Below are positions 5,577-31,459 of a DNA stretch of 64,000 nucleotides, piece by piece. Below the pieces are notes generated by a model. It did no database searches. It was not told the DNA's origin and was given only the letters and a program-made list of their open reading frames with translations. The DNA is from a virus (Duplodnaviria; Caudoviricetes). Location: the IMG/VR virus record IMGVR_UViG_3300037467_003067, positions 32,001-96,000 of that record. The stretch is one strand, 5' to 3'. The first letter of the stretch is position 1. Each line of letters begins with the position of its first letter. The position numbers and the translations under genes were made by a program.

Positions 5577-5893
5577 TGAGAAACGGCGAAAAAACCAATC
5601 CAGAAGAACCGTTTTCATTCCATGACTTTAAGAAATGGATGTTGAAAAATGCGACCAATGAATTCCATATTCAGTCGCATAAAAAAGGCATCGGGGTCGA
5701 AGTCGAACCCAAGGTTGGCTTGAAGAAATTACTCAATAGAATGCAAGCCGAGGAGGGCAGCGTTCTGGAGATGGCGCGAGATTTTAGGACCAATGGGGGA
5801 CAGATTGTTGAAATCGATGACCCCTTGGTGATGGTTGAGGTTTCTAGCGGGACATTCATTATCCCTCGGACCTGTATCAGGCGAAAAGACTGA
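5576..5893 (+). CDS. hypothetical protein
   Basis: TAATG overlap with the upstream stop; AAGGA Shine-Dalgarno (SD). Confidence 0.65.
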   Translation: MRNGEKTNPEEPFSFHDFKKWMLKNATNEFHIQSHKKGIGVEVEPKVGLKKLLNRMQAEEGSVLEMARDFRTNGGQIVEIDDPLVMVEVSSGTFIIPRTCIRRKD

Positions 5894-5894
5894 T

Positions 5895-6269
5895 TCACTT
5901 TTTTCGCCTGGTCATGATCCTCGTTTGACCCAATCGCTTGGTGTCGATCGTGCCACCATGCTGGAAGTCCATCTCCGGGTTGGCGGCTAAGGGCAATTTG
6001 CGATAACCCCGCTTGAGCAGTCGCTCCTGTAATTCCTTGTAGGATTGGGCTGGCTCAATCCATGGTTCCCAATACATGCGGTTCTCTGCGACGATTGCGC
6101 GGATGGTCTCGGTCATCGTGGGGTCAAGACCAAGCTTGTTTACATCGTCAATCCGGGACGTGATCGGCAACCCTTCGAACGATGCTAGGATTCTGACCCC
6201 CTTCTTGTCCCGCCTCGCCAAGTAGAGGTACAACTTGGTCGGCTGGGGAGTCTGTGCTTTTAATGCCAT
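5895..6269 (-). CDS. hypothetical protein
   Basis: Convergent ORF that fills the gap. Start chosen at ATG 6269 and is uncertain. Confidence 0.6.
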   Translation of the reverse strand: MALKAQTPQPTKLYLYLARRDKKGVRILASFEGLPITSRIDDVNKLGLDPTMTETIRAIVAENRMYWEPWIEPAQSYKELQERLLKRGYRKLPLAANPEMDFQHGGTIDTKRLGQTRIMTRRKK

Positions 6270-6378
6270 ATAATGTCTCAAATAAAATGTTTAATACTAA
6301 TTGAACACTAGGGTCTCTTGGATCGAATTGACCCAAGAAGTATTTCATCGTTTCTACCGCCTCTTGGGCTTTGTCCAT

Positions 6379-6726
6379 ATGCCAATACCATTAGCTAATT
6401 ACTTGAATATAAAAGATAAAGTCTGTATTAGTTATCCCGGACCTTCGGAAGAATATGTTATCCAACTCGACAGGGCTAGGAATAATATCGAATCCGCATA
6501 TCCCGAGATTGAATTCTATTTCTCTTGTAGATCCGAATTCCTTTATCGCTTCAAAAGCAAGATCAGGGTCGTCGATCTCGAACAACTCCAGTCCAGGAGG
6601 CGGGACTTCGGAATGATCCACGAGATCCGCCGCAACCTGGAGGTCAATCCCGTCATGAATTTCCTCCAGGAATCCGACATCCCATTTGAAAAAATGTGGT
6701 TTGGTCAAGATACGCCCAAAATATAA
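6379..6726 (+). CDS. hypothetical protein
   Basis: ORF fills the gap; start uncertain. Confidence 0.5.
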   Translation: MPIPLANYLNIKDKVCISYPGPSEEYVIQLDRARNNIESAYPEIEFYFSCRSEFLYRFKSKIRVVDLEQLQSRRRDFGMIHEIRRNLEVNPVMNFLQESDIPFEKMWFGQDTPKI

Positions 6727-6794
6727 GAAAGGAGTATCTATATACCCCGTAGAGATAGCTTAAAAATTGACCTCTTTTTGAAAAGGGAAAACCA

Positions 6795-7373
6795 ATGAGC
6801 GTATTCCGCGTACAACTGTCAAACAGTCAGCAAGGACTCTTGGACGTTGATATGACCACAGGGCTGCCAGTCACCACCAGCATCCAGAGGTCGATCTATG
6901 CAATGGGTCCGCACCGCACTAATCGTTTGCTCAAGGACGGTGATACTTTCACCGACAGCAACTACTGGAAGCGATTTGCTTATCCACAGGTTCCGCTTGA
7001 GGAAGCCTTCATCGCCGTGGTCGAGGACGACGGCAGCGTCTACAGTGACTTCGAGGTCGAGCAGACCTTCCTTAAGAATTACTCTTTGGACATCCCTAAC
7101 GGCAGTACCTACACTGCTACCACGAACATTGCCGACATCCTCGGCGATACCGGTGGATTTGCCGTGTTCACCCAGATCGTGAACAACGGTAGCGGCAACG
7201 TAAGCGTCCGCATCAACGGCTCTGTCGATTCGACCTTCGTCCTCGGTGCCAGCGATGCCCAGATCTTCAATGCCGGTGAACTTGCCGTGACCAAGGTGGC
7301 TTTCGCCAACTCCAGCGGTTCTTCCCAGGCTGTCCAGGTTCTCGTCTCTGTTCGCGCTCAGTCCAACAGCTAA
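6795..7373 (+). CDS. putative highly expressed virion/decoration protein
   Basis: C-ending codon bias like the capsid gene, an upstream CTATATA box, a downstream terminator and a beta-rich sequence. Confidence 0.6.
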   Translation: MSVFRVQLSNSQQGLLDVDMTTGLPVTTSIQRSIYAMGPHRTNRLLKDGDTFTDSNYWKRFAYPQVPLEEAFIAVVEDDGSVYSDFEVEQTFLKNYSLDIPNGSTYTATTNIADILGDTGGFAVFTQIVNNGSGNVSVRINGSVDSTFVLGASDAQIFNAGELAVTKVAFANSSGSSQAVQVLVSVRAQSNS

Positions 7374-7393
7374 GGCAAGACCATTAAAAACCA

Positions 7394-7431
7394 AACAAAA
7401 AAGGGATAGCACTTGCTATCCCTTTTTTGTT
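7394..7431. terminator. bidirectional intrinsic terminator
   Basis: AAAAAAGGGATAGC-ACTT-GCTATCCCTTTTTT. Confidence 0.85.
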
Positions 7432-7451
7432 GCACAAACTCTTTAACATTT

Positions 7452-8408
7452 ATGAAGCTAGCACCGAAATTAGGCAAGAGGCAGTTCTCCCTGAAAGACT
7501 ACTCCAGGAAACGTAATCAAATCTTGATCAACCGGGAGACCGGTGGGTTGGGCGACATCCTCATGCATCGGATGATGTTCGAGGATATCAAGAAGTCGGG
7601 ATTAGAAATACATTTCGCCTGCCCCAAACAGTATCATGCGGCGGTCCAAGATCATCCCTACCTGGACAAGGTATTAGATTCGGAGACTGTCAGCCCCTAC
7701 GAATACCTTGCTTCGTACAACACGACCACGGCATGTGGGCGGTACGAATCGCGGATCGCCCCATTGTCCGGACTCCACCGCAGTGATATTTGGTCGAAGC
7801 ATTGCGGCTTCGACCTCACCAATCATGAGATGCATATCAATTTGTCCCAAGAAGAGGTTATGTTTGGAAAGAATCTTCTATGCGGATTAAATACTAGGAT
7901 GAAGCCGACGGTCGCGGTCTGCCCGGTCTCGGCTCAGGGCAGCAAGAACCTGGTGGGTGTCCAGGTTTCTGGGGTCATCGATGGCTTGAGGGATATGGGG
8001 TTCATGCCGTTCGGTCTCCATACCAAGCCAGTCCCCGAGATCGACGCCAAAAAATCGCCGATGGTCCATGGGTTGGATATCCGGCAATGGATGGGAGTCA
8101 TGAATGCTGCGGATTATGTAGTCGCCGTAGATACCTCGGCGTTCCATCTGGCTGGTGGATTGAAGAAACCCTTGGTGGGCATTTTCAGCTTCGCGGACGG
8201 AGACGTGTATTCGAAGTATTATCCTAGCGTAGAGCTAATCCAGAAACACCGCAATAGAGATCCTGAATGGACTTGCGGTCCTTGCTATGCGTGGGTGACT
8301 TGCCCGAAGTCGAAATTGCTCCGCAAGCCCTGCATCACGGAGATCACGGCTCAGCAAATCATGGACGGTTTTTCCAGATTGTTGGAAAAATATCCTAAAA
8401 AATACTAA
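7452..8408 (+). CDS. glycosyltransferase family 9-like protein
   Basis: GGLGDILM, VDTSAFHLAGGL and a C-terminal CxxC..C..C cluster. Confidence 0.75.
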   Translation: MKLAPKLGKRQFSLKDYSRKRNQILINRETGGLGDILMHRMMFEDIKKSGLEIHFACPKQYHAAVQDHPYLDKVLDSETVSPYEYLASYNTTTACGRYESRIAPLSGLHRSDIWSKHCGFDLTNHEMHINLSQEEVMFGKNLLCGLNTRMKPTVAVCPVSAQGSKNLVGVQVSGVIDGLRDMGFMPFGLHTKPVPEIDAKKSPMVHGLDIRQWMGVMNAADYVVAVDTSAFHLAGGLKKPLVGIFSFADGDVYSKYYPSVELIQKHRNRDPEWTCGPCYAWVTCPKSKLLRKPCITEITAQQIMDGFSRLLEKYPKKY

Positions 8409-8428
8409 ATTATTGTAGAGGAATTTAT

Positions 8429-8677
8429 ATGCCAAATGTTGTAAGACCAAGCACTGTCATCATCTCGAATGGCGCGAGCGAAGGACACCTCAAGATCACC
8501 CTTGAACTGAACATCAACTTGAACTCCAACGGGATTCAGGCGAGCGTGACGGCAGCGGAAGCCAAGGAAGACGTGGGACATGACAAGGAATTCGAGTTTG
8601 CGATCCCCGAATTCGAATCCCAGAACAAGGTCGATTTCGGAAAGAGCGTAGACAATGATAGATCAGTCGATGGTTGA
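8429..8677 (+). CDS. small hypothetical protein upstream of the actin-like gene
   Basis: GAGGA SD; appears co-operonic with the following genes. Confidence 0.65.
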   Translation: MPNVVRPSTVIISNGASEGHLKITLELNINLNSNGIQASVTAAEAKEDVGHDKEFEFAIPEFESQNKVDFGKSVDNDRSVDG

Positions 8678-8888
8678 TGCTTGGAAGGGCATTTATCAAG
8701 GTGCCGTTTCATCTGCACAGAAGTGGAAGAATATCCCGGCAAGCGATGCCCGGCTTCGCGCCATGGCTCGGTTGTATGTTCGCGAGGAAGTGCCGCACTA
8801 TCGGCACGAATTGAATCTGAGTCTGCAATTCCTGAGTGACAACGAATTGGGACGATTTCAGAAGTTTTTCAAGAATGAAAGTGAGTGA
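8655..8888 (+). CDS. hypothetical protein
   Basis: Overlapping ORF within the apparent operon. Confidence 0.55.
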   Translation: MIDQSMVDAWKGIYQGAVSSAQKWKNIPASDARLRAMARLYVREEVPHYRHELNLSLQFLSDNELGRFQKFFKNESE

Positions 8889-8893
8889 GGATT

Positions 8894-9904
8894 ATGAAGA
8901 GAATTGGTTATGACTGCGGGACGTATAATCTTGTTTGCTGCCATCGGGACGACAAGAACAATTTCGTCCACAAGCGAGAGGTCAATGCGTTCCTGGAGAT
9001 GCCGCTTGAGAATCGCTTCGTGTTCAACATGATGAAGAACGCTGGCGTCCCTTTGATCGAGCGAGACGACGTAGCGTATGCCTTGGGTGAGTCGGCGGTC
9101 GAGATGGCGTACACTATGTCACACATCGAACTCAAGCGACCTATGTGTGATGGATGCGTGAATCCCAAGGAAAAAGATGCATTTCAGATCATGAGCATCA
9201 TGATGCACAGCCTTCTTGGTGATATTAAAGCAGACAAGACCCCGCTGTACTACAGCGTTCCCGCGAACGCGATTAACCAGGAGACCGATGCAGATTATCA
9301 CGGCAAGATACTCCAATCGATCTTCAATGCTTACCGGTCGAAAGATGGCTATACCGTGGATGCTCATCCGATCAACGAAGCCTTGGCGATTGTCTATGCT
9401 GAAGCAGCTCAGAAGGCATTTACCGCCATTGCCATTTCGGCGGGAGGGGGAATGGTAAACGTTTGTTTTAGCATTTTCGGATCTCCGGTCTTCACTTTTG
9501 CGATCGTCAACAGCGGCGACTGGATCGACAGGATGGCTGCCAAGGCAACCGGAGAATCAATTGCTTATATAAACAGAGAGAAGACCAAAATCGACTTGTC
9601 GAAAGCTCCAACCAACCTAGTCGAGCGTGCGATCCAAACACAGTATCAATTGATGATTGAAAAGACGGTCCAGGGCATCAAGAAGGGCATCATCGATGCG
9701 GGCAACAAGGCACGTACCGACAAGCCGATCGATGTTATCGTGGCAGGCGGTACTGCTTCGCCTACTGGTTTTGACGTGATGTTCTCCGAAGTCCTGCATC
9801 AGGCTGAACTTCCGATCAAGATTGGTAATGTAATCCGTCCAGCCGATCCGCTTTACAGTGTGTGTCGCGGATGTTTGATTGCGGCTGAGAATGCCAGTCA
9901 TTGA
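8894..9904 (+). CDS. actin-like ATPase, volactin-like
   Basis: Phosphate-1 GYDCGTYN, connect-1 PINEALA, phosphate-2 ISAGGGMVNV, adenosine VAGGTAS and connect-2 PLYSVCRG. Confidence 0.85.
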   Translation: MKRIGYDCGTYNLVCCHRDDKNNFVHKREVNAFLEMPLENRFVFNMMKNAGVPLIERDDVAYALGESAVEMAYTMSHIELKRPMCDGCVNPKEKDAFQIMSIMMHSLLGDIKADKTPLYYSVPANAINQETDADYHGKILQSIFNAYRSKDGYTVDAHPINEALAIVYAEAAQKAFTAIAISAGGGMVNVCFSIFGSPVFTFAIVNSGDWIDRMAAKATGESIAYINREKTKIDLSKAPTNLVERAIQTQYQLMIEKTVQGIKKGIIDAGNKARTDKPIDVIVAGGTASPTGFDVMFSEVLHQAELPIKIGNVIRPADPLYSVCRGCLIAAENASH

Positions 9905-9994
9905 AGAATTAGGTTTGTACATAAGTCGAGGATACTCTTTGCTAGGATGTCTTCGACTTTTAAATGATATGATAAACGAAAGGAAAGAAAGTCA

Positions 9995-10207
9995 ATGAAT
10001 CATTACGTAAACGACCTTGGAGTAGCGGCATTTGTTATGATGCACGGGTTCAAGATCATCCGCAAGACCGGTAATACCCTTTACTTCGACGTGGCTCCGG
10101 GTGACGTGGAAGAATTCGAGAGACTCCAGATGGAATATCTCAACAGCGACTTCCACCGCTTCGACTCGTTCCTGATGGCTATTAAGAAAATGAACAGCCG
10201 AGGCTAA
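9995..10207 (+). CDS. small DUF5659-like protein
   Basis: DLGVAAFVMMHGFKII..YF pattern; AAGGA SD. Confidence 0.55.
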   Translation: MNHYVNDLGVAAFVMMHGFKIIRKTGNTLYFDVAPGDVEEFERLQMEYLNSDFHRFDSFLMAIKKMNSRG

Positions 10208-10210
10208 ATA
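10204..10210 (+). promoter_or_regulatory. late-promoter-like box CTAAATA, 5 nt before ATG
   Basis: Recurrent motif directly before capsid-targeted genes; resembles the T4 late promoter TATAAATA. Confidence 0.6.
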
Positions 10211-10215
10211 AAACC

Positions 10216-11955
10216 ATGATTAGTTTTAAGGAATATAGGCTGAATGAGGCGGGCGGCGTTCCCTCCATGAAGCCAAGAAACGCGACATCTCAGGATGGTC
10301 TTGCGGCGCTGGAGGCTGAGGTTCTCGGCATCGTCGATACCTCGATCACCACGCTTCAGAAGTCTTTGAGGCAACGTGGTGGTGAGATGAATCCCTTCGA
10401 CGTGATGAGGCAAAATTTGCCTTGGTATCGCCGCTTGGGCAATTGGTGGAATCGTTTCTGGAACAACGACACTTCCAATGAATCACAGGAATATGGTCTT
10501 GAATTCCCGGATTTCATCCCTTTACACGAGCAGGAAGCCTTTCATGAACTTGAACTGATCATGGAAGGTCCCATCAATCATGCGATCGATCAAATGATGT
10601 ATCGCCTCCAAAGTCTCCGCGAGGAGCTTCACAAGGCAATCAAGCAGAGTTTCGCTACATACCGCCAGAGTCAGAGCCAACCGGGCGGCACTCAAGCGAC
10701 ATTACAACCGGCGACCACTTCAGACTTGCCTGCTAAATCCAATAAGGTAATGGATGCCAAGACCCAGACCTTCGATCCCGAAGACACAGATGATTCGGGC
10801 AGCACAAGCCCACTCCCCGACCCTGCGGATAGTGGTCCCGATGCTACAACGCCGGATGTTGGTTCTCCTCCGGAGACTCCCGAGTCGCCCGATGCGACTC
10901 CACCAGGGACTCCACCATCACGCCTGAGAGATGATATCCACATCGAAAATGTGGCAGCATTGACAGGTAGAGGGGACTATGGTTTGGCATCGAAGGTTGC
11001 GTTTGGTGGAAAAATCTATAAAGTCGCGAGTGCCAAATACAACAAGGCTGGAGAATTGGTCTCAGTTGAGGTCAAGGGAATCAAGGGCGAGATACCTGTT
11101 CCTGAGGAACTAGGCAAGAAGGTGGCGATTCGCTACGGCAGGCGAGAAGGCACGATCGAAGATATTCGGAAAAGCATCATCAACGGAGACCCTCCGATTT
11201 CTGATGAGCCATCGGGAACTTCGTCGGAACCAACGCCGACCCCAACCCCTCCAACACCACCGCCTGTTGACAGGAAACCCCCGGAAGAACCCCCGGTCGA
11301 CGATGAAATTGATACCAGTCCTATCGAAGACCCGGAAAGCGCCGAAGAAGGGGAGCATGACGTGTCTTGGTTGCCAGACAAGGACCAAAGGCTCTATGAC
11401 AAGGCGATGGCGGCGCGTGCCGAACGTGAAGCGATGGGCAAATTAACCCCTGCAGATCGATTCGAGCAATCGCTCAAGAATAATCCTGATTATTTGAATC
11501 CGACATTGCTGAAGATCATCGATTCGTCGCCAACGCCGGAATATCGACATTCCATTGTATCTTTCTTGGCTGGGATGTCGAAAGGGACTAGGATCTCGTT
11601 ATTCCCTCGTAATAATCACGGCTTCATGGATACCGATGTCGATCTGGGCAAGCTGGATTGGATTGCTGAGTTGAGTCCCGAGAAGGCTTACGAGGTCGGA
11701 GAAAAAATCGAAGACATGGACGAAGACAATCCGGGTTTCGACCTCAAGAAAGAGCTCGAACCTTACTTTGCCAATAAAGAAACATTCGATGCTTGGGTTA
11801 ACTCGCCAAACGAAAGTACGCATTCAAGAACTAAGATATTTGTGGAGAACTTGAAGAACAAACCTCCGAAGACCGACAAGGAAAATAAAGAGATACCGTT
11901 CGACAAACAAGTAACTCGTTATAAGAAAAAACTTAGGTCACGTGCTAAATCGTAA
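10216..11955 (+). CDS. putative internal head protein with capsid-targeting-like N-terminus and Pro/Asp-rich linkers
   Basis: N-terminus MISFKEYRLNEA; 579 aa. Confidence 0.65.
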   Translation: MISFKEYRLNEAGGVPSMKPRNATSQDGLAALEAEVLGIVDTSITTLQKSLRQRGGEMNPFDVMRQNLPWYRRLGNWWNRFWNNDTSNESQEYGLEFPDFIPLHEQEAFHELELIMEGPINHAIDQMMYRLQSLREELHKAIKQSFATYRQSQSQPGGTQATLQPATTSDLPAKSNKVMDAKTQTFDPEDTDDSGSTSPLPDPADSGPDATTPDVGSPPETPESPDATPPGTPPSRLRDDIHIENVAALTGRGDYGLASKVAFGGKIYKVASAKYNKAGELVSVEVKGIKGEIPVPEELGKKVAIRYGRREGTIEDIRKSIINGDPPISDEPSGTSSEPTPTPTPPTPPPVDRKPPEEPPVDDEIDTSPIEDPESAEEGEHDVSWLPDKDQRLYDKAMAARAEREAMGKLTPADRFEQSLKNNPDYLNPTLLKIIDSSPTPEYRHSIVSFLAGMSKGTRISLFPRNNHGFMDTDVDLGKLDWIAELSPEKAYEVGEKIEDMDEDNPGFDLKKELEPYFANKETFDAWVNSPNESTHSRTKIFVENLKNKPPKTDKENKEIPFDKQVTRYKKKLRSRAKS

Positions 11956-12006: not shown

Positions 12007-12966
12007 TTACTGGCTCAGCAATTCGGTTGCAAGTTTGTCGAGTTCCTCGCCTGCACTACCCTCGATCAACGTGTAGTCGGCGACTTTGACTGGTTTAAGG
12101 TCGATGATGTATTTGTTTTTCACCTGGGAAAAGAAAGGAAGCAGCCAGGCAGCGGGGTAGACCTGTGCCGAGGTACCGCAGCAGATGAATACGCCGTTGC
12201 GATACTTGACTTCCTTGACCAATTTGGCTACTCGGTCGTAAGTTAGATCCACAGCTTCGCCGAACCAGACTACCTCGGGACGCAAGTGACGTTGACATTT
12301 GGGGCATCTCTCGCCTTCAACAACGGGCTTGTCAGTTTCGGTCTTGTAGTCGCAGGTGAAGATGGTGTCGCCATCGAGGTTGCTGATCTCATGATGTCGT
12401 TCGCATTTTTTGCGATTGATGAATCCATGGAGATGCCAGACGTCCTTGCATCCGGCGCGTTCCAAGAGGTCGTCGATGTTCTGCGTGATGTTGACCACGT
12501 TGAACTTCTCCTGGAGTCGGGCAATTGCCTTGTGAGCTAGATTCGGCTCAGCCGCCTTGATTGCCTCGAATCGCTGCGCGTAGAAATCCAGGACCAACGA
12601 ACGGTTCTTGATCCAGCCGTCCTGGCTTGCGACATCTTCCACGCGATGTTGCTCCCATAGAGAATCATTGCCTCTAAATGTGGGGATACCGCTTTCAGCC
12701 GAAAGCCCGGCACCGCTGAAGACCACGATGGTCCTCTTGTCAGCCGGTTCGGTCGGCAAGTTTTCTTGTTCCAGCACTTCATCAAACACTTGATTCTCCT
12801 TCTTTGATTCCAGAGTAGCTGCCGGTTCGGTCAAGCTCTGGTAGCCACAATGGGGGCAATGATAGGGATTGGACGGATCGCCGTCGCCGATGGTCCACCA
12901 ACCTCGACAGTTGCCGCATCCCAAATGTAACAAGTTTTCGATCGAGTAGCAATGCTTATTCTTCAT
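12007..12966 (-). CDS. cobB: Sir2/CobB NAD-dependent deacylase with an N-terminal Zn ribbon
   Basis: GAGLSAESGIPTFR, TQNIDDL, LHG, RPEVVWFGE and GTS motifs; class III YxxR (FYAQR). Confidence 0.9.
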   Translation of the reverse strand: MKNKHCYSIENLLHLGCGNCRGWWTIGDGDPSNPYHCPHCGYQSLTEPAATLESKKENQVFDEVLEQENLPTEPADKRTIVVFSGAGLSAESGIPTFRGNDSLWEQHRVEDVASQDGWIKNRSLVLDFYAQRFEAIKAAEPNLAHKAIARLQEKFNVVNITQNIDDLLERAGCKDVWHLHGFINRKKCERHHEISNLDGDTIFTCDYKTETDKPVVEGERCPKCQRHLRPEVVWFGEAVDLTYDRVAKLVKEVKYRNGVFICCGTSAQVYPAAWLLPFFSQVKNKYIIDLKPVKVADYTLIEGSAGEELDKLATELLSQ

Positions 12967-13520
12967 TAATTTTCCATTGCTTTCTCGTTAAGGATTTGGT
13001 CCCATTTCCTGGTATCTCTCCAATGAGACAATGTATTTGTGCTAATCGATGTTCCGTACAACTTGTTGGCAGATTCTAAGAAGTTGAGCAAAAGTTCTGC
13101 TTCAACTTTTAACCCGAGCAATCGCAAACTTTCTAGGACACGAGTAATGCGCAGGTGATTGTGATTGAACTCAGACCAAATATACCTCTTTTTGTCGAAG
13201 TTTGGGGATGGAATAAGATGATCGCAAACAGCAGATTCGGAGCTTTCGCATTGTAATCCGAGGAAGACTAAAAATCTATAAAAAGAACAACTTAAGTTGT
13301 TCTTTAATTCAGAATCAGACCGGAACAATATCATGTCTTCTTCATCGGGTTCCGGAGCATCTTCATTAAACATGCTTTTGGTTAAGGTAGGAAACCACCA
13401 CTGAATATAGTCATGGCATACTTCGAGTTTCTCATCTGACCAGCCCCACATTTCTACTAGCATCCTACCTTCAGAATCAGGATCAATGTCTCTATAAAAA
13501 TCAATTAATCTCTGGTTCAT
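12966..13520 (-). CDS. OGFr N-terminal domain protein
   Basis: LEVCHDYIQWWFP and NHNHLRITRVLESL signatures. Confidence 0.85.
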   Translation of the reverse strand: MNQRLIDFYRDIDPDSEGRMLVEMWGWSDEKLEVCHDYIQWWFPTLTKSMFNEDAPEPDEEDMILFRSDSELKNNLSCSFYRFLVFLGLQCESSESAVCDHLIPSPNFDKKRYIWSEFNHNHLRITRVLESLRLLGLKVEAELLLNFLESANKLYGTSISTNTLSHWRDTRKWDQILNEKAMEN

Positions 13521-24245: not shown

Positions 24246-26042
24246 ATGGATCAAGTTTCGGCATGGAGAGGTAAATACAAGTCTTTGAGAGAATACTACG
24301 AGAAGGAATATCCTTCGAAGTATTATACCTTCACACTTGAAGAACTCCAGATCGACCCTGATGAAACGGTTGATCAACTCGATCAATACAAATTCGACCG
24401 GCAGACGGAAGAGTTCCTGAAGTGCGGCGAAAGCTTCTCATACTTTTGCCACAAATATATCAAGATTGGACATCCGGTCAAGGGAACAGTCCCATTCGTC
24501 CTGTTTAATTACCAGAGACGGGTTGTTGGCGAATTCGACGACTATCGATTCAACATCATCAGCAAATTCCGGCAGGGAGGTCTAAGTACCGTTGCGGTCA
24601 TCTGGTCGCTATGGCGATGTATGTTTAAATACGATGAAACCATCATGTTACTCTCAAAAGCCGACCGCGAAGCTATCGCTGCCGGTGAAATCGCCGTACG
24701 TGCCATTGAATTTCTCCCCACCTGGCTCAAGCCCAAGATGGAAAAATCCAACGAACACCAGCACTATTTCGAAGAGACCAGATCCAAGTTCTTTTGCTAC
24801 ACACCTAACGCGGCTCGTGGACGGTCGATTACTTATTTGATCCTCGATGAGGCGGCGTTCATCCCCAAGATGGAAGACCATTGGAAAGCTATGTACCCGA
24901 CCATCGCTACTGGTGGTAATTGCATAGCCATCTCCACGGTCAACGGCGTGGGAAACTGGTATGAAGAAACATACCACAAAGCACAAGAAGGGAAGAATCC
25001 TTTCCACATCATTGAGCTAGATTATAACGAACATCCGGATTATGACAACCCCAAATGGGTCAAAGAAACTCGTGCCAACCTGGGAGAGAAAGGCTGGCGA
25101 CAGGAAGTTCTCAGGGATTTCCTCGGCTCGGGTACGACCTATATCCCATCCGATATCATTCGCGAACTCGCCAAGAAGACCAGGGATATTCCCATCACAA
25201 GGAAATTATTCCCTGAATTCAATAACCATGATAAAAGCGAAATTATTGACGAGTGGGCTGACAAGGGCGCTCTCTGGGTCTTCAAAGAACCCTTGGACGG
25301 ACGCGAATACATCATCGGTGTTGATGCAGCCGAAGGTGTTGGCGACGACGGCGATAACAGTTGCCTCCAAATCATCGACGCCCAAACTTGCGAACAGGTC
25401 GCTGAGTTTTATAGTAACTGCTGCCCCACCGATAAGTTCGCTAAGATCACCGAACAGATCGGTATCTACTACAACAACGCGCTGGTGGTCGTCGAAAACA
25501 TGGGAGGTGCCGGTGTCGCTGTTCTCATGAAACTTCAGACCGAATACTACTATGAAAACATCTACTACGAAAATAGCAAGAGCATGGAAAAAGCGGGAGT
25601 CCGCGTCGGGAGCAACAATCGACCCGTCATACTGGAAGCACTGCAGAGCCGCTTGCTGAATAAGAGTCTGCCGGTTTCGAGTACCCGGTTCATGTTGGAA
25701 CTCGAAACCTTCATCTGGAACAAGCAAAAACAAAAAGCAGAAGCCCAGAAAGGCAAGCATGATGATGCGGTCATGGCGATGGCACACGCGATCTATGTTC
25801 GAGACCAGAATATGCGTCAGCCGCACGTCTTCCCGACTAATTCGGCACCCGTCATCACCGATGCGTTCAAGCTGGAGATGTACGAACAAATTAAGATGGA
25901 AATCCAGAGAGGTGCTCCGGATGATTGGATCGATCCGAGCGACCGTGCCATTAACTTTAATGACGACGACGAAGACCAGTTTCATGAGTTCTACGCCAAT
26001 AGACGACCATACCACTCCATCCTTTCCGAATTTGCCTGGTGA
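24246..26042 (+). CDS. gp17: terminase large subunit (T4 gp17-like)
   Basis: LFNYQ, KFRQGGLST, LILDEAAF, ISTVNG, IGVD and HDD. Confidence 0.95.
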   Translation: MDQVSAWRGKYKSLREYYEKEYPSKYYTFTLEELQIDPDETVDQLDQYKFDRQTEEFLKCGESFSYFCHKYIKIGHPVKGTVPFVLFNYQRRVVGEFDDYRFNIISKFRQGGLSTVAVIWSLWRCMFKYDETIMLLSKADREAIAAGEIAVRAIEFLPTWLKPKMEKSNEHQHYFEETRSKFFCYTPNAARGRSITYLILDEAAFIPKMEDHWKAMYPTIATGGNCIAISTVNGVGNWYEETYHKAQEGKNPFHIIELDYNEHPDYDNPKWVKETRANLGEKGWRQEVLRDFLGSGTTYIPSDIIRELAKKTRDIPITRKLFPEFNNHDKSEIIDEWADKGALWVFKEPLDGREYIIGVDAAEGVGDDGDNSCLQIIDAQTCEQVAEFYSNCCPTDKFAKITEQIGIYYNNALVVVENMGGAGVAVLMKLQTEYYYENIYYENSKSMEKAGVRVGSNNRPVILEALQSRLLNKSLPVSSTRFMLELETFIWNKQKQKAEAQKGKHDDAVMAMAHAIYVRDQNMRQPHVFPTNSAPVITDAFKLEMYEQIKMEIQRGAPDDWIDPSDRAINFNDDDEDQFHEFYANRRPYHSILSEFAW

Positions 26043-27601: not shown

Positions 27602-30600
27602 ATGCCTGGATATCCGTGGTGGGACCTATTTAAAGTTTATACAGCCGCTTTCGATACCGACCCCTTGTCGAAAAAGAATGACGAGAAGAACCTGTCGGGC
27701 GCTGGTGTCATCAATCCTAATGCCGTGGGCATGATGGATATCCGCGCCGACCAAGCCGGATCAGGGAGCAGCGACCTCGTCCGAATCGGTGCCTCAGGCA
27801 ACGAGATGGTCGACCTCACGTCGGTCGAAGATCGCCGCGCCCGCTACAAGGAATACGAGCGACTCCGAAACATCGCTGAAGTCGAAAACTGCATGACCGT
27901 TTTCGCCGACGAAGCCTGCGTTGCCGGTGACACCAAGGTCGCCACGCCATTCGGCTTTCCCACGATCCAATGGCTCGCAGAGAACCGTGCTAATGACCGC
28001 TTCCTCGTCTACTGCTGGGATTTCGAGAAGGAAGATTATAGCCTGGGATGGGCATTCGCCCCAAGGAAGACCGGTACCCGAGAAACTGTCCAGGTCACTC
28101 TCGACGACGGCAGTACCGTAACCTGTACCCCAGACCACAGGATTCTTCTGAAGAACCAGCAATGGACATTCGCAGGCGACCTCAAGTTCGGCGACCACTT
28201 GATGCCATTCTATAAGATTCCACCTAACCCCTATCTCTCGAAACTGAAGACTGGTCAATTCCCGAGAATCTTCACTTTCCACGATGGTTGGACCCATGAA
28301 CGATTCTTTGTCGATAAATGGAGAACCGGACAGGAATCCCCGCAGCAAGCCAAGGTCCAGAAGGCGATTCGGGCTCTTGCAGCCGGTCTCAGCACCAGAC
28401 AGACCGGAGAACTCGTTGGACACGAATGGAAGACCATCGAAGGTTGGCTCCACAAGAATGGCTTCGGCTCCAAGGAAATCAAGTGGCTCGGCAAGAAAGC
28501 CGACCATCGTCGGGTCGTCGATGTCTCAAGGCATAAGGAAATCGACGTCTATGACCTCTCCGTGGAAGAACACAAGTGCTTCGCTACGACCAACATCATC
28601 ATGCACAATTGCCAGAAAGATGATGATGGACACATATGCAAAGTCATAGTTGATGACTCTGATGTCAAGGACGAAGCTGAACATTTCCTCTACAAAATCG
28701 TCGATATCGACCGCAAGGCGTGGAATTGGTTCAAGAACGACATCATCGCAGGCGACGGCTTCTATGAAATGATCCCTTCACCCGAAGACCCGAAACAAGG
28801 AATATTAAAGGTCGAAAGATTGCCCCAAGAGACCATGTTCCGCATCGAGACCGTCAAAGGCAGAATCGTCGAGTTCCAGCAATCCAAAGAAGGACCAGAC
28901 CTCGAATGCCTGAAGGTAGATATTACGCAAGCTACTGATACAGATCTGATGTCGTCCAAGGCGATCAGATTCGCCCCAGACCAAATCGTCCACGTGAGAC
29001 ACGGCGAGGATCGATCCATGTTCCGACCCTATGGCGTCAGCCTGATCGAACCGGCTCGTGGTCCAGCACACCAGCTTCGCATGATGGAGGATGCAATGCT
29101 GGTTTATAGGCTGACTCGCGCCCCTGAGCGTAGGGTCTTCTACATCGACGTCGGAACCATTGCCGGTGCCAGAGCCGAAGCCTTCATGAAGCAAATCAAG
29201 GACCAATTCAAGAAACGTAAGACCACGGGACGAGGTCACGGAACCGGAGCCAATGCAGTCGAAGAACGATGGCACGCACCATCTGCCGACGAAGATTATT
29301 GGATTCCTATCCGACCAAATAGCAATACCAGGATCGACACTTTGCCAGGTGCCTGTCTTGCCCTAGATACCGAAATTCCTTTGCTTGATGGAAGAAATCT
29401 TCCATTGCTAAAAATTATTGAAGAATACAAGCAAGGAAAGAAGCTATGGACATACAGTATCAATCCTAAAACCGGACAGTCTGTACCAGGACCAATTACT
29501 TGGGCTGGAATTACGCGACGTAATACTGAAGCTGTCAGGATTCATTTCGATAACGGCAAGAGCGTTACATGTACTCCAGACCACAATTTCCCCGTCCAGG
29601 GTAAAGGTAAAACTCAAGCTAAGGACCTGAAGCCGGGCGATAGCATGTTCCCATTTAAGACCAGAATGGAAAATTTGAGTTCAGGGTGGAAATCAAAATA
29701 CACTCAAGTTTATGATTCTAAAGAACGTAATTGGGTATTCGTACACCGGATGGTCAAAGATAGCTTAAAGAAAACGGATTTTGACGATATTTTAGTTTTT
29801 AATGAAAAACATCAAAACGATCCAAAAAAAGTAATTCATCATGTTGATTACAATCGATTGAATAACAACCCAAATAATTTGGCGTGGATGAATTGGTACG
29901 ACCACATAGAACTCCACAGGACTAATCAACACGTGACTAATGACAACATTAGTAAGGCTTTGACTAAGTATCATGAAAATCTTTCCAATGAAGATAAGGC
30001 AAAAAGAGATAAGATACTTTCAAAGCGATCAAGAAAGGGAAGTAATTCTCTTTTAAGTAAACTAGAAGACCCAGAATATAATGAATGGTTTCGAAGTCAA
30101 CAATTGGAAGGATGGAAAACCGCAGCCATCTTGCGCCCTGAATTGCATAAAATGAGAGGCGAAAAGATTACGGCTAGAAATCTAGAGTTTTGGTCTAATC
30201 CAGAAAACAAAAAGAAGGTTTTCGCGAAACAAACGATTTCGTATCCAAAATCCATGTTTGATGAGTTCGTACGGCTTGTCAAAGAAGGTTTGCTTCTTGA
30301 AGAAATCTTACCACAAATTAATTCTAACCAGAATATTATTCAAGATTTCATTGATTGCAATTCGCATATCAAGAGGAATGTTGATTTCTCTAAAGGTATT
30401 AGTGATGACCATGCCAAGAAAATGGTCAAGGCTTATGGCTATAAAGGAATCAAGCACCTCCGAAAAGAAGCGAATCACTACAATCATAAAGTCGTAAAGA
30501 TTGAATTCCTTCAAGAAAAAGTAGATACAGGAACCTTGACCATTGATGGCAATCATGAAGTTCATGATTACCACACATTTGCCTTAAGTTGTTGTGGAGT

Positions 30601-31459
30601 ATATACTTATAACTCGAATCTCGGCGAAATCGACGACGCTCTTTATTTCCGCAACAAGCTCTACATCGCGTTGAACTTCCCCAAAAACTACTTTAATCAG
30701 GAAGACAGCGCCCAGACCCGGATCACCCTCTCGGCTCAGGACGTGAGGTTTGCGAGAAGCATCGAACGACTCCAGAGCGCCTTCGAATACGGACTCCAGG
30801 AGATGGTCACAAGACATCTTTATCTCATGGGTTTCCCCGAGGAAAGCTATGACGAACTGAAAGTCAGAATGACCCCGCCGTCCGACTGGCGTGAACTGAG
30901 TCGGGCCGAAGTCGATAGCAATCGCCTCAACAAGGCGACCACCCTCAAGAGTTCGCAGCTTTATTCGGATTTTGATATATACGTCAAAGTCTTCGACATG
31001 ACCGAAGACGAGGCGAGGGAGATCCAGTCACGAATGAAGGTTCAGAAGATGGACGACCTGAGAATTCAGATTATCGCCAACAATCCGCAAATCATGGGTG
31101 TCGGATTGCCAGGCGATGGAGAAACGGAACTCGGCACCGAGGCTGGAGGTCCCGCTCCCGACTTGATGCCCCCCGATGGTGGTGGAATGCCTCCGGGAGC
31201 TCCGCCGGGTCCAGGTGGATCGCCTATGGGACCGGGGGGAGGTCCACCCCAAGGCATGACGAAGTACATGTCGGCTGATGGAGGACCAGACCAGGCACAG
31301 GGGCAACAACAGCAATCGCAAGACCCCAATCAGGGACAGGAAAGTTCGCCCCCACCGTTGCCCGATGCGTCCGAAGACGATATAAGGAAGTATCACATGG
31401 GGATCGAGGACTACGCCTCCGAACAGGACGCCGAAGACATCGATTATAGCGAACTCTAA
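27602..31459 (+). CDS. gp20: portal protein (T4 gp20-like) with two inteins; about 634 aa after splicing
   Basis: QLRMMEDAMLVYRLTRAPERRVFYIDVG, EDYWIP, TLPG..NLGEIDD and YFRNKLY. Confidence 0.95.
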   Translation: MPGYPWWDLFKVYTAAFDTDPLSKKNDEKNLSGAGVINPNAVGMMDIRADQAGSGSSDLVRIGASGNEMVDLTSVEDRRARYKEYERLRNIAEVENCMTVFADEACVAGDTKVATPFGFPTIQWLAENRANDRFLVYCWDFEKEDYSLGWAFAPRKTGTRETVQVTLDDGSTVTCTPDHRILLKNQQWTFAGDLKFGDHLMPFYKIPPNPYLSKLKTGQFPRIFTFHDGWTHERFFVDKWRTGQESPQQAKVQKAIRALAAGLSTRQTGELVGHEWKTIEGWLHKNGFGSKEIKWLGKKADHRRVVDVSRHKEIDVYDLSVEEHKCFATTNIIMHNCQKDDDGHICKVIVDDSDVKDEAEHFLYKIVDIDRKAWNWFKNDIIAGDGFYEMIPSPEDPKQGILKVERLPQETMFRIETVKGRIVEFQQSKEGPDLECLKVDITQATDTDLMSSKAIRFAPDQIVHVRHGEDRSMFRPYGVSLIEPARGPAHQLRMMEDAMLVYRLTRAPERRVFYIDVGTIAGARAEAFMKQIKDQFKKRKTTGRGHGTGANAVEERWHAPSADEDYWIPIRPNSNTRIDTLPGACLALDTEIPLLDGRNLPLLKIIEEYKQGKKLWTYSINPKTGQSVPGPITWAGITRRNTEAVRIHFDNGKSVTCTPDHNFPVQGKGKTQAKDLKPGDSMFPFKTRMENLSSGWKSKYTQVYDSKERNWVFVHRMVKDSLKKTDFDDILVFNEKHQNDPKKVIHHVDYNRLNNNPNNLAWMNWYDHIELHRTNQHVTNDNISKALTKYHENLSNEDKAKRDKILSKRSRKGSNSLLSKLEDPEYNEWFRSQQLEGWKTAAILRPELHKMRGEKITARNLEFWSNPENKKKVFAKQTISYPKSMFDEFVRLVKEGLLLEEILPQINSNQNIIQDFIDCNSHIKRNVDFSKGISDDHAKKMVKAYGYKGIKHLRKEANHYNHKVVKIEFLQEKVDTGTLTIDGNHEVHDYHTFALSCCGVYTYNSNLGEIDDALYFRNKLYIALNFPKNYFNQEDSAQTRITLSAQDVRFARSIERLQSAFEYGLQEMVTRHLYLMGFPEESYDELKVRMTPPSDWRELSRAEVDSNRLNKATTLKSSQLYSDFDIYVKVFDMTEDEAREIQSRMKVQKMDDLRIQIIANNPQIMGVGLPGDGETELGTEAGGPAPDLMPPDGGGMPPGAPPGPGGSPMGPGGGPPQGMTKYMSADGGPDQAQGQQQQSQDPNQGQESSPPPLPDASEDDIRKYHMGIEDYASEQDAEDIDYSEL
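27917..28609 (+). mobile_element. intein 1 in portal (231 aa; HTH, no intact endonuclease seen)
   Basis: CVAGDT.. block A, TPDH block B, VYDLSV..HN/C end. Confidence 0.9.
29354..30613 (+). mobile_element. intein 2 in portal (420 aa) with HNH endonuclease
   Basis: CLALDT.., TPDH, VHR..IHHVDYNRLNNNPNNL..H, YN/S end; visibly AT-rich. Confidence 0.9.

What the first reader, a model, noticed from the sequence alone, without database searches (positions are those of the whole stretch)
8429..9904. Phage-encoded volactin-like actin with two small upstream genes
Seen: all actin-fold motifs are intact, plus KRPM..G, YYSVPA..D..YH, PINE..A.VY.E, GDWID..AA.ATG and PLYSV.RG. As I recall them, these match haloarchaeal volactin better than MreB or ParM. 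Known: characterised jumbo-phage cytoskeletons are mostly tubulin (PhuZ). Inference: an actin filament may position DNA or capsids, or remodel host shape. The 82-aa and 77-aa upstream proteins are candidate adaptors.
Basis: partly seen in the sequence, partly recalled or inferred. Interest (0 to 1): 0.7.

Follow-up and report, generated by a model that had tools for sequence, protein, structure and literature searches.

The report
Huge-phage volactin-type actin gene module
A roughly half-megabase uncultured T4-like phage encodes its own actin-family protein of the archaeal "volactin" type, almost always flanked by the same two small phage-only genes, so these tubulin-less giant phages probably build their own actin filaments, though nobody has yet shown a filament.

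Summary
The ORF is real. Its likely start is ATG 8894, giving 336 aa. It is a full-length member of Pfam Volactin (PF25216, 204 bits, E 6e-60), and no other Pfam actin family scores. The window lies in a 298.6-kb fragment of a T4-like huge phage. Near-complete relatives are 459-595 kb; each has one volactin gene, no tubulin and no tyrosine integrase.

The gene is conserved at 57-72% identity on 168 viral contigs. Synteny is fixed: an 82-aa gene directly upstream (64/80 loci) and a 70-aa gene directly downstream (79/80 loci, usually a tandem duplicate).

"All motifs intact" needs correcting. The phosphate-2 Asp is Ser (ISAGGGMVN), as in about 130 of 136 family representatives.

The predicted fold (pLDDT 95.5) is closest to the filament formers BeeR, MreB, MamK and crenactin, but Hsp70 is not far behind. 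Filament formation and cargo are inferred, not shown.

I found no paper describing volactin-type actins in phages. Prophage actins of other families, such as AlpC, are known. This scan has already noted phage volactins on other DNA (165 notes, at least 133 genomes).

The parts
8894..9904 (+). Volactin-family actin-fold ATPase gene (336 aa; the ORF is also open from GTG 8885).
   Evidence: Pfam PF25216 at 203.9 bits, E 6e-60, full length. GAGG ribosome-binding site before ATG 8894. AF2 model pLDDT 95.5, pTM 0.93. Closest solved folds are BeeR Z 28.6, MreB Z 27.0, crenactin Z 25.7 and MamK TM 0.74. Relatives on 168 viral contigs.
8429..8677 (+). S1: 82-aa conserved upstream partner. It has a conserved N-terminal beta-like segment (..KITLELNINLN..), a variable charged linker and a conserved C-terminal tail (AIPEF....KVDFGK).
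   Evidence: tblastn finds it in 64/80 syntenic loci at about 34% identity, usually 0-15 nt before the volactin start. No Pfam or PHROG hit. A similar small ORF sits directly upstream of volactins that are only 40% identical (L099, L086; weak HMM E 0.04 and 0.12).
8655..8888 (+). S2: 77-aa ORF (72 aa from ATG 8670). A lineage-specific orphan inserted between S1 and the volactin gene, not part of the conserved module.
   Evidence: 0/80 loci. No relative in viral contigs. Its only database match is itself, on 3 contigs. Other relatives carry unrelated 600-790 nt inserts at the same junction.
9995..10207 (+). D1: 70-aa conserved downstream partner. It is a small alpha/beta domain, single here but a tandem duplicate in most relatives.
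   Evidence: 79/80 loci at about 46% identity. 63 loci have two tandem copies and 16 have one. AF2 pLDDT 93, order beta-alpha-beta-beta-alpha-alpha. No convincing fold match: Foldseek E>0.5, VIA Z<=5.0. Pfam DUF5659 is below its cut-off. The profile finds 550 unannotated proteins, on contigs up to 669 kb.
10216..11955 (+). D2: 579-aa charged, Pro/Thr/Ser-rich low-complexity protein. It may be a positional equivalent of the variable protein that follows D1 in relatives.
   Evidence: No BLAST match in the loci. Most loci have a 270-1224 aa charged ORF in this position, and a subset shares the N-terminal pattern M-x-x-F-x-(E/D)-(Y/F)-R. Membership in the module is not established.
7452..8408 (+). 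GT9-like glycosyltransferase gene, co-directional and immediately upstream of S1.
   Evidence: Pfam Glyco_transf_9 at 26.9 bits, E 3.5e-06. Present in 62/80 loci and absent in others, where the 192-aa gene abuts S1. It is therefore a variable neighbour, not a core part.
7394..7431 (.). Perfect 18-nt inverted repeat with flanking A/T runs: a terminator-like hairpin after the 192-aa gene (6795-7373). It marks the upstream limit of the GT9-S1-S2-volactin run.

Best explanation
Gene 8894-9904 encodes a phage volactin-family actin. The most likely reading is that it binds ATP and polymerises into cytoplasmic filaments in the infected cell. It would then work as the core of a conserved three-gene module: S1 (82 aa), volactin, D1 (70 aa).

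S1 is read as a partner that docks on the actin through its conserved C-terminal tail. D1 is read as a dimeric (or, in relatives, pseudo-dimeric tandem) accessory or adaptor.

The filament would organise the very large infected cell, positioning replicating phage DNA and/or assembling virion parts. That makes it a functional analogue of the PhuZ tubulin spindle in phages that have no tubulin. The non-canonical phosphate-2 loop (Ser for Asp) suggests slow or unusual hydrolysis.

Shown here: family membership, fold, phage origin, strong conservation, single copy, fixed synteny, and absence of tubulin.

Inferred: polymerisation, the S1 and D1 interactions, and the cargo.
For: Family and fold:
- PF25216 at 204 bits is the only Pfam hit.
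- A profile of 41 family members matches filament formers first in the PDB: MamK E 2.4e-15, BeeR 1.4e-10, MreB 3e-8, FtsA 3e-6.
- The AF2 model (pLDDT 95.5) has the full four-subdomain MreB/MamK-sized fold. MamK filament TM 0.74-0.76; BeeR Z 28.6, MreB Z 27.0, crenactin Z 25.7.
- The founding member of the family, H. volcanii VolA, forms dynamic filaments in vivo (PMC10869688).

Selection and distribution:
- 168 viral contigs carry a relative at 57-72% identity, while the neighbouring genes are only 30-50% identical.
- The huge-phage clade is monophyletic (SH-like support 99).
- Five relatives of 459-595 kb, four of them at least 91% complete, each have exactly one volactin and no tubulin.
- ESM Atlas clusters of this type are 92-96% viral.
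- Inteins have invaded the phosphate-2 loop in 15 of 150 family representatives and in L085. Inteins typically sit in essential active sites.

Module:
- S1 and D1 are adjacent in 64/80 and 79/80 loci, with gaps of mostly 0-30 nt.
- An S1-like ORF also precedes volactins that are only 40% identical, on a 341-kb viral contig.

Link to DNA in the wider family:
- Bacterial members are fused to HU (P0194) or ParB-HTH (P0219) DNA-binding domains.
Against: - No filament, ATPase activity or protein contact has been tested. No co-folding tool was available.
- Structural similarity does not by itself separate polymerising from non-polymerising ASKHA proteins. The Hsp70 ATPase domain (BiP) scores Z 24.1, only about 4 units below the top hit.
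- The phosphate-2 Asp is Ser and the following Thr and acidic residues are Met and Asn. By my recollection, the equivalent Asp-to-Ala changes abolish hydrolysis in MreB and ParM, so the chemistry may differ.
- D1 has no recognisable DNA-binding fold.
- No centromere-like repeat array lies nearby.
- Expression timing is unknown. The enriched CTATATA upstream motif is not found before GT9, S1, volactin or D1.
- The host is unknown.
Confidence: 0.55

Rival explanations
1. Plasmid-prophage partition system. The phage persists as a very large extrachromosomal element, and the volactin with its small partners segregates copies to daughter cells, as in type II ParMRC or AlpAC.
For: - No tyrosine integrase in five near-complete relatives.
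- IMG/VR labels G000 and G001 'provirus'.
- Layout of an actin gene plus a small downstream gene.
- Cellular volactins are fused to HU or ParB-HTH domains.
- AlpC/AlpA of prophage CGP3 is a precedent (PMC4446434).
Against: - No iterated centromere-like repeats in 5800-10300.
- D1 shows no ribbon-helix-helix or helix-turn-helix fold match.
- The genome has a T4-like lytic architecture.
- The gene sits among fibre, glycosylation and structural genes rather than at a replication origin.
- ParM is the most distant outgroup in the tree (branch length 4.0).
Confidence: 0.15
2. Host take-over. The filament, or S1 acting alone, reshapes the host or blocks its division, for example by enlarging the cell to hold huge capsids. 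The S1 tail would mimic the FtsZ C-terminal peptide.
For: - The characterised family member, VolA, acts in cell-shape transitions.
- The S1 tail core A-I-P-(D/E)-F resembles E. coli FtsZ D-I-P-A-F.
- 0.5-Mb genomes imply very large capsids.
Against: - The resemblance covers 4-5 residues and was noticed after the fact.
- S1 is strictly linked to the phage actin gene, which suggests it binds that protein.
- There is no membrane-targeting helix on the actin and no transmembrane segment in S1 (read from the sequence).
Confidence: 0.15
3. A non-polymerising ASKHA ATPase, either chaperone-like or an enzyme activator in the manner of Hsp70 or EutJ, that assists virion assembly or glycosylation next to the GT9 and fibre genes.
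For: - The Hsp70 ATPase domain scores Z 24.1 and EutJ Z 20.1.
- The phosphate-2 loop is non-canonical.
- The neighbours are structural and glycosylation genes.
Against: - The top sequence-profile and fold hits are all filament formers.
- Subdomain IB is present and the size matches MreB and MamK.
- The founding member of the family polymerises in vivo.
- There is no Hsp70 substrate-binding domain.
- GT9 is absent in 18/80 loci while the actin module stays.
Confidence: 0.12

Closest known systems
Volactin (VolA, HVO_2015) of Haloferax volcanii; Pfam PF25216 (Schiller et al. 2024, PMC10869688)
   Same: Same Pfam family over the full length (204 bits). Same actin/MreB-like four-subdomain fold. 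Shared family motifs: RRPM..G, YSVPA, NEA, GDWID, GGT(S/A).P.GF. About 30-35% identity to halophile-like family members such as P0181.
   Different: - Encoded by a bacterial-type T4-like huge phage, not an archaeon.
- Lies in a separate, monophyletic subfamily far from the acidic halophile-like representatives.
- Phosphate-2 has Ser/Met/Asn, whereas VolA is printed as LGVDFGAGT (Suppl. Fig. 8b).
- The partners S1 and D1 are phage-only.
- A role in the rod-to-disk shape change does not apply.
MamK (magnetosome actin), BeeR and MreB
   Same: These are the nearest solved structures, and all form filaments. MamK: profile E 2.4e-15, TM 0.74. BeeR: Z 28.6. MreB: Z 27.0.
   Different: Only 15-18% identity. 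Pfam MreB_Mbl does not score for this protein. No membrane-binding helix or insertion loop is evident. The phosphate-2 chemistry differs.
AlpC/AlpA of Corynebacterium prophage CGP3 (PMC4446434) and plasmid ParMRC
   Same: An actin-like ATPase encoded by a mobile element with small co-transcribed partner gene(s). The proposed logic is the same: a filament plus an adaptor moving or positioning DNA.
   Different: A different actin family: ParM is the most distant outgroup, and no StbA/ParM Pfam hit is found. No centromere repeats were found. D1 is not recognisably DNA-binding. The carrier is a half-megabase, probably lytic, phage.
PhuZ/TubZ tubulin spindle of nucleus-forming jumbo phages
   Same: It would be the functional analogue: a phage-encoded cytomotive filament that organises the infected cell.
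   Different: Unrelated fold (tubulin versus actin). No tubulin gene is present in this record or in five near-complete relatives.

Membership tests
Pfam PF25216 Volactin | HMM score above the gathering threshold over the whole domain | tested here: met
   203.9 bits against a cut-off of 35, profile positions 3-321 of 321. The search of the window's own genome gives the same result.
Pfam PF25216 Volactin | Scores better than the other actin-like families (MreB_Mbl, StbA/ParM, FtsA, Actin, Salactin) | tested here: met
   No other actin-like Pfam family appears even at E<=10. All 41 diverse relatives hit PF25216, and only 13 hit MreB weakly.
Pfam PF25216 Volactin | Actin/MreB-type four-subdomain fold | tested here: met
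   AF2 pLDDT 95.5. MamK TM 0.74-0.76, BeeR Z 28.6 (rmsd 3.2 over 302 residues), MreB Z 27.0.
Pfam PF25216 Volactin | Canonical ASKHA nucleotide motifs: phosphate-1 DxG(T/S), phosphate-2 DxG, adenosine GG | tested here: not met
   Phosphate-1 (D7, G9, T10), the catalytic Glu162 and the adenosine motif (G285, G286, T287) are present. The phosphate-2 Asp is Ser182 (ISAGGGMVN). About 130 of 136 family representatives share the Ser, so this does not argue against family membership. It does differ from the printed H. volcanii VolA motif.
Pfam PF25216 Volactin | Same subclade as (orthology with) H. volcanii VolA | tested here: inconclusive
   In the FastTree, the phage clade (support 99) lies far from the acidic halophile-like representatives P0151, P0157, P0164 and P0181. 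The VolA sequence itself was not available by reference and is not in the tree.
Pfam PF25216 Volactin | Dynamic filament formation | not testable with these tools
   Needs polymerisation assays or imaging. No multimer prediction tool was on hand.
Type II ParMRC plasmid partition | ParM-family (StbA) actin | tested here: not met
   No StbA hit at E<=10. No ParM among the PDB profile hits at E<=1. R100 ParM is the longest outgroup branch. ParM structures score Z 19-23, below BeeR and MreB.
Type II ParMRC plasmid partition | Array of centromere repeats (parC) next to the operon | tested here: not met
   No iterated direct-repeat array in 5800-10300. There are only scattered 2-3-copy chance-level matches and one terminator hairpin.
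Type II ParMRC plasmid partition | Small ribbon-helix-helix DNA-binding adaptor (ParR) | tested here: inconclusive
   The D1 model (pLDDT 93) has no significant match: Foldseek E>0.5, best VIA Z 5.0.
MreB/Mbl (PF06723) | HMM match above threshold | tested here: not met
   No hit for this protein at E<=10. The relation is visible only at profile level, E 3e-8.
PhuZ/TubZ phage tubulin | Tubulin/FtsZ GTPase domain (PF00091) | tested here: not met
   The protein has an actin fold. PF00091 is absent from G000 and from five relatives of 459-595 kb.
DUF5659 (PF18903), considered for D1 | HMM score above the gathering threshold | tested here: not met
   16.3 bits against a cut-off of 23.6 for the window's D1. 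Only 6 of 36 domain copies match at E<=0.1, best 3.8e-4.

The most novel reading that the evidence does not exclude
A whole clade of 0.46-0.6 Mb tubulin-less phages runs an undescribed actin-based cytoskeleton. It would consist of a volactin-type filament with a non-canonical (Ser) ATPase site, a tail-docking partner (S1) and a dimeric adaptor of new fold (D1). This would be the actin counterpart of the PhuZ spindle, organising DNA replication or virion assembly in giant-phage infections.
Probability: 0.45. Interest if true: 0.8.

Novelty: new variant of a known kind. Interest (0 to 1): 0.6.

Why it matters
Phage-built cytoskeletons are so far known mainly from the tubulin PhuZ, which centres the phage nucleus. 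Actin-like proteins of mobile elements are known from plasmids and a few prophages (ParM, Alp7A, AlpC). Here, a strongly conserved, single-copy actin of a different family (volactin), with its own partner genes, appears across the largest known phages, which lack tubulin. That suggests a second, independent way for viruses to organise a bacterial cell.

It also offers a tractable 336-aa test case for two family-level puzzles. One is how volactins work with Ser instead of the catalytic phosphate-2 Asp. The other is what volactin filaments carry, given that bacterial relatives are fused to HU and ParB-type DNA-binding domains.

The two main papers I checked, on huge phages and on jumbo-phage cell biology, do not mention phage actins. 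None of the 17 papers that use the word volactin is about phages, judging by title or abstract.

Tried and rejected
Neighbourhoods were taken from the search for related loci instead.
- The 41-member alignment A1 was too diverse for a genome scan; a smaller alignment, A2, was used.
- Host or cellular origin could not be inferred. The genome-contig scan gave only 7 hits, in MAGs assigned to 7 unrelated lineages. One hit lies on a 546-kb contig. I read these as mis-binned phage contigs, so no host follows.
- ParMRC-like centromere: no repeat array.
- D1 as a ribbon-helix-helix or winged-helix adaptor: no fold match and no PDB sequence match. DUF5659 is below threshold.
- S2 as an adaptor: it is an orphan.
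- Viral structure library (BFVD): no close model. The best are Hsp70 homologues at TM about 0.6.
- PHROGs: no family for volactin, S1, S2 or D1.
- Direct PDB sequence search with the single protein: nothing.
- Late-promoter test: CTATATA is enriched upstream of genes (10 observed against 0.5 expected) and precedes the 192-aa gene and the terminase gene. It is absent before GT9, S1, volactin and D1, so expression timing stays open.
- D2 conservation: no significant similarity beyond low-complexity matches.
- P0124 and P0128 subgroups: no viral contigs found.
- The second huge phage, LR745208.1, has a 33%-identical volactin but no S1 or D1 neighbours.
Full report
**What is there.** The long one is open from GTG 8885, but ATG 8894 has a GAGG ribosome-binding site 4 nt upstream. 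The database copy of this protein is the 336-aa form (P0001), so I take 8894-9904 as the gene. All five quoted motif strings are in the translation.

Against Pfam the protein hits only Volactin (PF25216): E 5.9e-60, 203.9 bits against a cut-off of 35, covering positions 3-321 of 321. Nothing else from the actin-like families appears even at E<=10. PHROGs has no family for it.

**The context is a huge phage.** The window holds a T4-type major capsid gene (gp23, 37807-39282), a gp20 portal interrupted by inteins (27602-31459), a large terminase (24246-26042) and a primase. It is part of a 298.6-kb IMG/VR record that CheckV rates 59% complete. The identical protein occurs on a contig of 585 kb. 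Among deposited phages, the best match is the 595-kb uncultured phage LR756511.1, at 65% identity.

**Conservation.** The word-indexed protein search returned 1167 relatives. The top 120 are all about 70% identical, all PF25216, and many lie on contigs of 100-585 kb.
- IMG/VR holds 168 contigs with a relative at 57-72% identity, including records of 572, 533, 527 and 459 kb.
- Five large relatives, four of them 91-100% complete and one with terminal repeats, each have exactly one volactin gene. None has a tubulin domain or a tyrosine integrase.
- ParB_N proteins exist in four of the five, but hundreds of kb away from the volactin gene.
- In 185,579 prokaryote species genomes, only seven contigs matched, in MAGs assigned to seven unrelated lineages. 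One is a 546-kb contig. I read these as mis-binned phage DNA.
- ESM Atlas clusters of this type are 92-96% viral.

**The gene module.** I ran tblastn with the window's neighbours against 80 related loci.
- Gene order is fixed: a minus-strand 128-aa gene, a 141-aa gene, a 192-aa gene, a GT9-like glycosyltransferase (62/80), S1 (the 82-aa ORF, 64/80), volactin (80/80) and D1 (the 70-aa ORF at 9995-10207, 79/80).
- S1 usually ends 0-15 nt before the volactin start. D1 usually starts 15-30 nt after its stop.
- The volactin is far better conserved (about 68%) than S1 (34%), D1 (46%) or the other neighbours (30-50%).
- The 77-aa ORF (S2) matched none of the 80 loci. It has no relative in IMG/VR. Among 5.8 billion proteins it matches only itself, on three contigs. 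It is an orphan insert at a junction where other relatives carry unrelated inserts of 600-790 nt.

**S1.** It has a conserved N-terminal segment (consensus ..LIKP..VKV.TKDGE..V.I.LELNINLN..), a variable charged linker, and a conserved C-terminal tail (W.IPDF....K..FGK; here AIPEF....KVDFGK).
- It has no transmembrane stretch, no Pfam hit and no PHROG hit.
- A small ORF of the same size, position and pattern sits directly upstream of volactins that are only 40% identical. It has an "ININ"-like strand and ends in ..DFG.. or ..NFG.. One case is on a 341-kb viral contig (L099) and one on L086. The HMM scores are weak (E 0.04 and 0.12).
- A folded head, a flexible linker and a conserved terminal peptide are what one expects of a protein that docks on a filament by its tail. 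That is inference only.
- The tail core resembles the E. coli FtsZ C-terminal peptide DIPAF, but only over 4-5 residues.

**D1.** It is single here and in 15 other loci, but a tandem duplicate in 63 loci. This suggests that it works as a dimer.
- AlphaFold gives a confident small alpha/beta domain (pLDDT 93).
- It has no convincing structural neighbour: Foldseek E>0.5, best VIA Z 5.0.
- It has no PDB sequence match.
- Pfam DUF5659 is below its threshold.
- The D1 profile finds 550 unannotated small proteins, on contigs up to 669 kb.

There is therefore no evidence that D1 binds DNA. No repeat array that could serve as a centromere lies in 5800-10300.

**What kind of actin.** A profile of 41 diverse family members (A1; all 41 hit PF25216) finds filament formers first in the PDB: MamK at E 2.4e-15, BeeR 1.4e-10, MreB 3e-8, FtsA 3e-6. 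EutJ, PilM and DnaK come after; no ParM appears.
- The AlphaFold model is excellent (pLDDT 95.5, pTM 0.93).
- Foldseek ranks the MamK filament first (TM 0.74-0.76), then Mbl/MreB and BeeR, then eukaryotic actins.
- The exhaustive aligner gives BeeR Z 28.6, MreB 27.0, crenactin 25.7, BiP (Hsp70) 24.1, actin 24.1, ParM types 17-23 and sugar kinases 17 or less.

The protein therefore looks most like polymerising actins. The margin over Hsp70 is modest, so the fold alone does not prove polymerisation.

**Position in the family.** I built a FastTree of 136 volactin domains plus E. coli MreB, E. coli FtsA and R100 ParM.
- The three outgroups sit on branches of length 2-4.
- The huge-phage clade is monophyletic (support 99). 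It lies inside a 23-member clade (support 99) whose other members include one on a 341-kb viral contig.
- The acidic, halophile-like representatives lie elsewhere.
- The 485-kb phage LR745208.1 has a volactin from yet another branch, without S1 or D1.

Phages have therefore acquired volactins more than once, and this clade is a subfamily of its own, not a close copy of haloarchaeal VolA.

**The active site.** Phosphate-1 (GYDCGT), the catalytic Glu (INEA) and the adenosine motif (VAGGTASPTGF) are canonical. Phosphate-2 is not.
- Where MamK, BeeR, MreB and FtsA have V-D-I-G-(G/A)-G-T-(T/S)-(D/E), this protein has I-S-A-G-G-G-M-V-N.
- About 130 of the 136 family representatives share the Ser, and most share the Met and Asn, so this is a family trait.
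- The founding paper prints H. volcanii VolA with the usual Asp and Thr (LGVDFGAGT; Suppl. Fig. 8b).
- By my recollection, the equivalent Asp-to-Ala mutants of MreB and ParM still polymerise but hydrolyse poorly. My inference is slow or unusual hydrolysis rather than loss of function.

This loop is also an intein hot-spot. Fifteen of 150 representatives are split there by 300-370-aa inserts. The Atlas has a viral LAGLIDADG/intein-volactin cluster. L085 carries a 1.1-kb insert after residue 182. Inteins usually occupy essential catalytic sites, which argues that the site matters.

**Hints about cargo.** Cellular members of the family carry N-terminal HU domains (P0194), ParB-type HTH domains (P0219, above the cut-off; P0225 and P0192 weaker) or zinc ribbons. 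This links at least some volactins to DNA. The phage protein stands alone and has S1 and D1 instead.

The module sits at the end of a plus-strand run of fibre, glycosylation and structural genes, and faces a minus-strand block with Sir2, an OGFr-like gene and the primase. A perfect hairpin terminator (7394-7431) follows the 192-aa gene. The CTATATA motif is enriched upstream of genes, but it does not precede GT9, S1, volactin or D1. Expression timing therefore stays open.

**Literature.** Seventeen papers use the word volactin, and none of those listed is about phages. The huge-phage survey mentions PhuZ and nucleus proteins but no actin or MreB. The jumbo-phage cell-biology review mentions actin-like proteins only as plasmid ParM. 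Known phage actins are of other kinds: AlpC/AlpA of prophage CGP3 and the actin-like proteins of Bacillus pumilus phages (cited).

**Earlier notes of this scan.** The scan has noted phage volactins on other DNA many times: 165 notes in at least 133 genomes. Several concern this same S1-volactin-D1 layout, and some also record the phosphate-2 Ser. These are unchecked AI notes. My results agree with them but were obtained independently; searches came before I read those notes.

**Verdict.** The family assignment, phage origin, conservation and three-gene synteny are solid. Filament formation is likely (about 0.7). The partner roles and the cargo are inference. Taken together this is a new variant of known kinds (phage or plasmid actins; the volactin family) rather than something categorically new. 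It is still of real interest because it covers a whole clade of the largest phages.

Noticed in passing
L085:4552-5663; representatives P0122, P0126, P0130, P0131, P0141 and others: Volactin genes of related phages are split by inserts of about 300-370 aa (inteins, some with LAGLIDADG) in or just after the phosphate-2 loop. There are at least two insertion sites. 15 of 150 family representatives are affected.
   Followed up: partly
proteins P0194, P0219, P0225, P0192, P0202, P0217, P0134: Cellular volactin-family proteins carry N-terminal HU, ParB-HTH or zinc-ribbon domains. P0134 has two volactin domains in tandem. These are fusions of a DNA-binding domain to an actin.
   Followed up: partly
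window 8590-8650 (S1 C-terminal tail): The S1 tail core A-I-P-(D/E)-F resembles the FtsZ C-terminal peptide D-I-P-A-F of E. coli (read from NC_000913.3). The match is too short to weigh.
   Followed up: partly
window 7394-7431: Perfect 18-nt inverted repeat flanked by A and T runs, a bidirectional terminator-like hairpin after the 192-aa gene. It shows that the TTG 7413 start of the GT9-like ORF is wrong; ATG 7452 is more likely.
   Followed up: partly
whole genome G000, e.g. upstream of window 6795, 24246, 45521, 48822: CTATATA is enriched in upstream regions (10 observed, 0.5 expected). It is a candidate late-promoter core, reminiscent of the T4 TATAAATA box.
   Followed up: partly
window 10216-11955: 579-aa charged, Pro/Thr/Ser-rich protein after D1. 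Relatives have a very variable 270-1224 aa charged ORF in this position, and some share the N-terminal pattern M..F.(E/D)(Y/F)R.
   Followed up: partly
window 27602-31459: The T4-type portal gene encodes a 1285-aa precursor with intein-splicing and HNH matches.
   Followed up: no
window 12007-13520 (minus strand): A Sir2-family gene (with an N-terminal Cys-rich segment) abuts an OGFr_N-like gene, opposite the volactin module. Neither is syntenic in relatives.
   Followed up: no
window 6795-7373: The 192-aa protein of unknown function is conserved in 74/80 loci at about 50% identity. It is preceded by CTATATA and followed by the strong terminator, so it is probably an abundant late (structural?) protein.
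   Followed up: no
L089 (LR745208.1:332426-343382): A second huge phage (485 kb) carries a volactin from a different branch (33% identity) without S1 or D1 neighbours. This indicates independent acquisition.
   Followed up: partly
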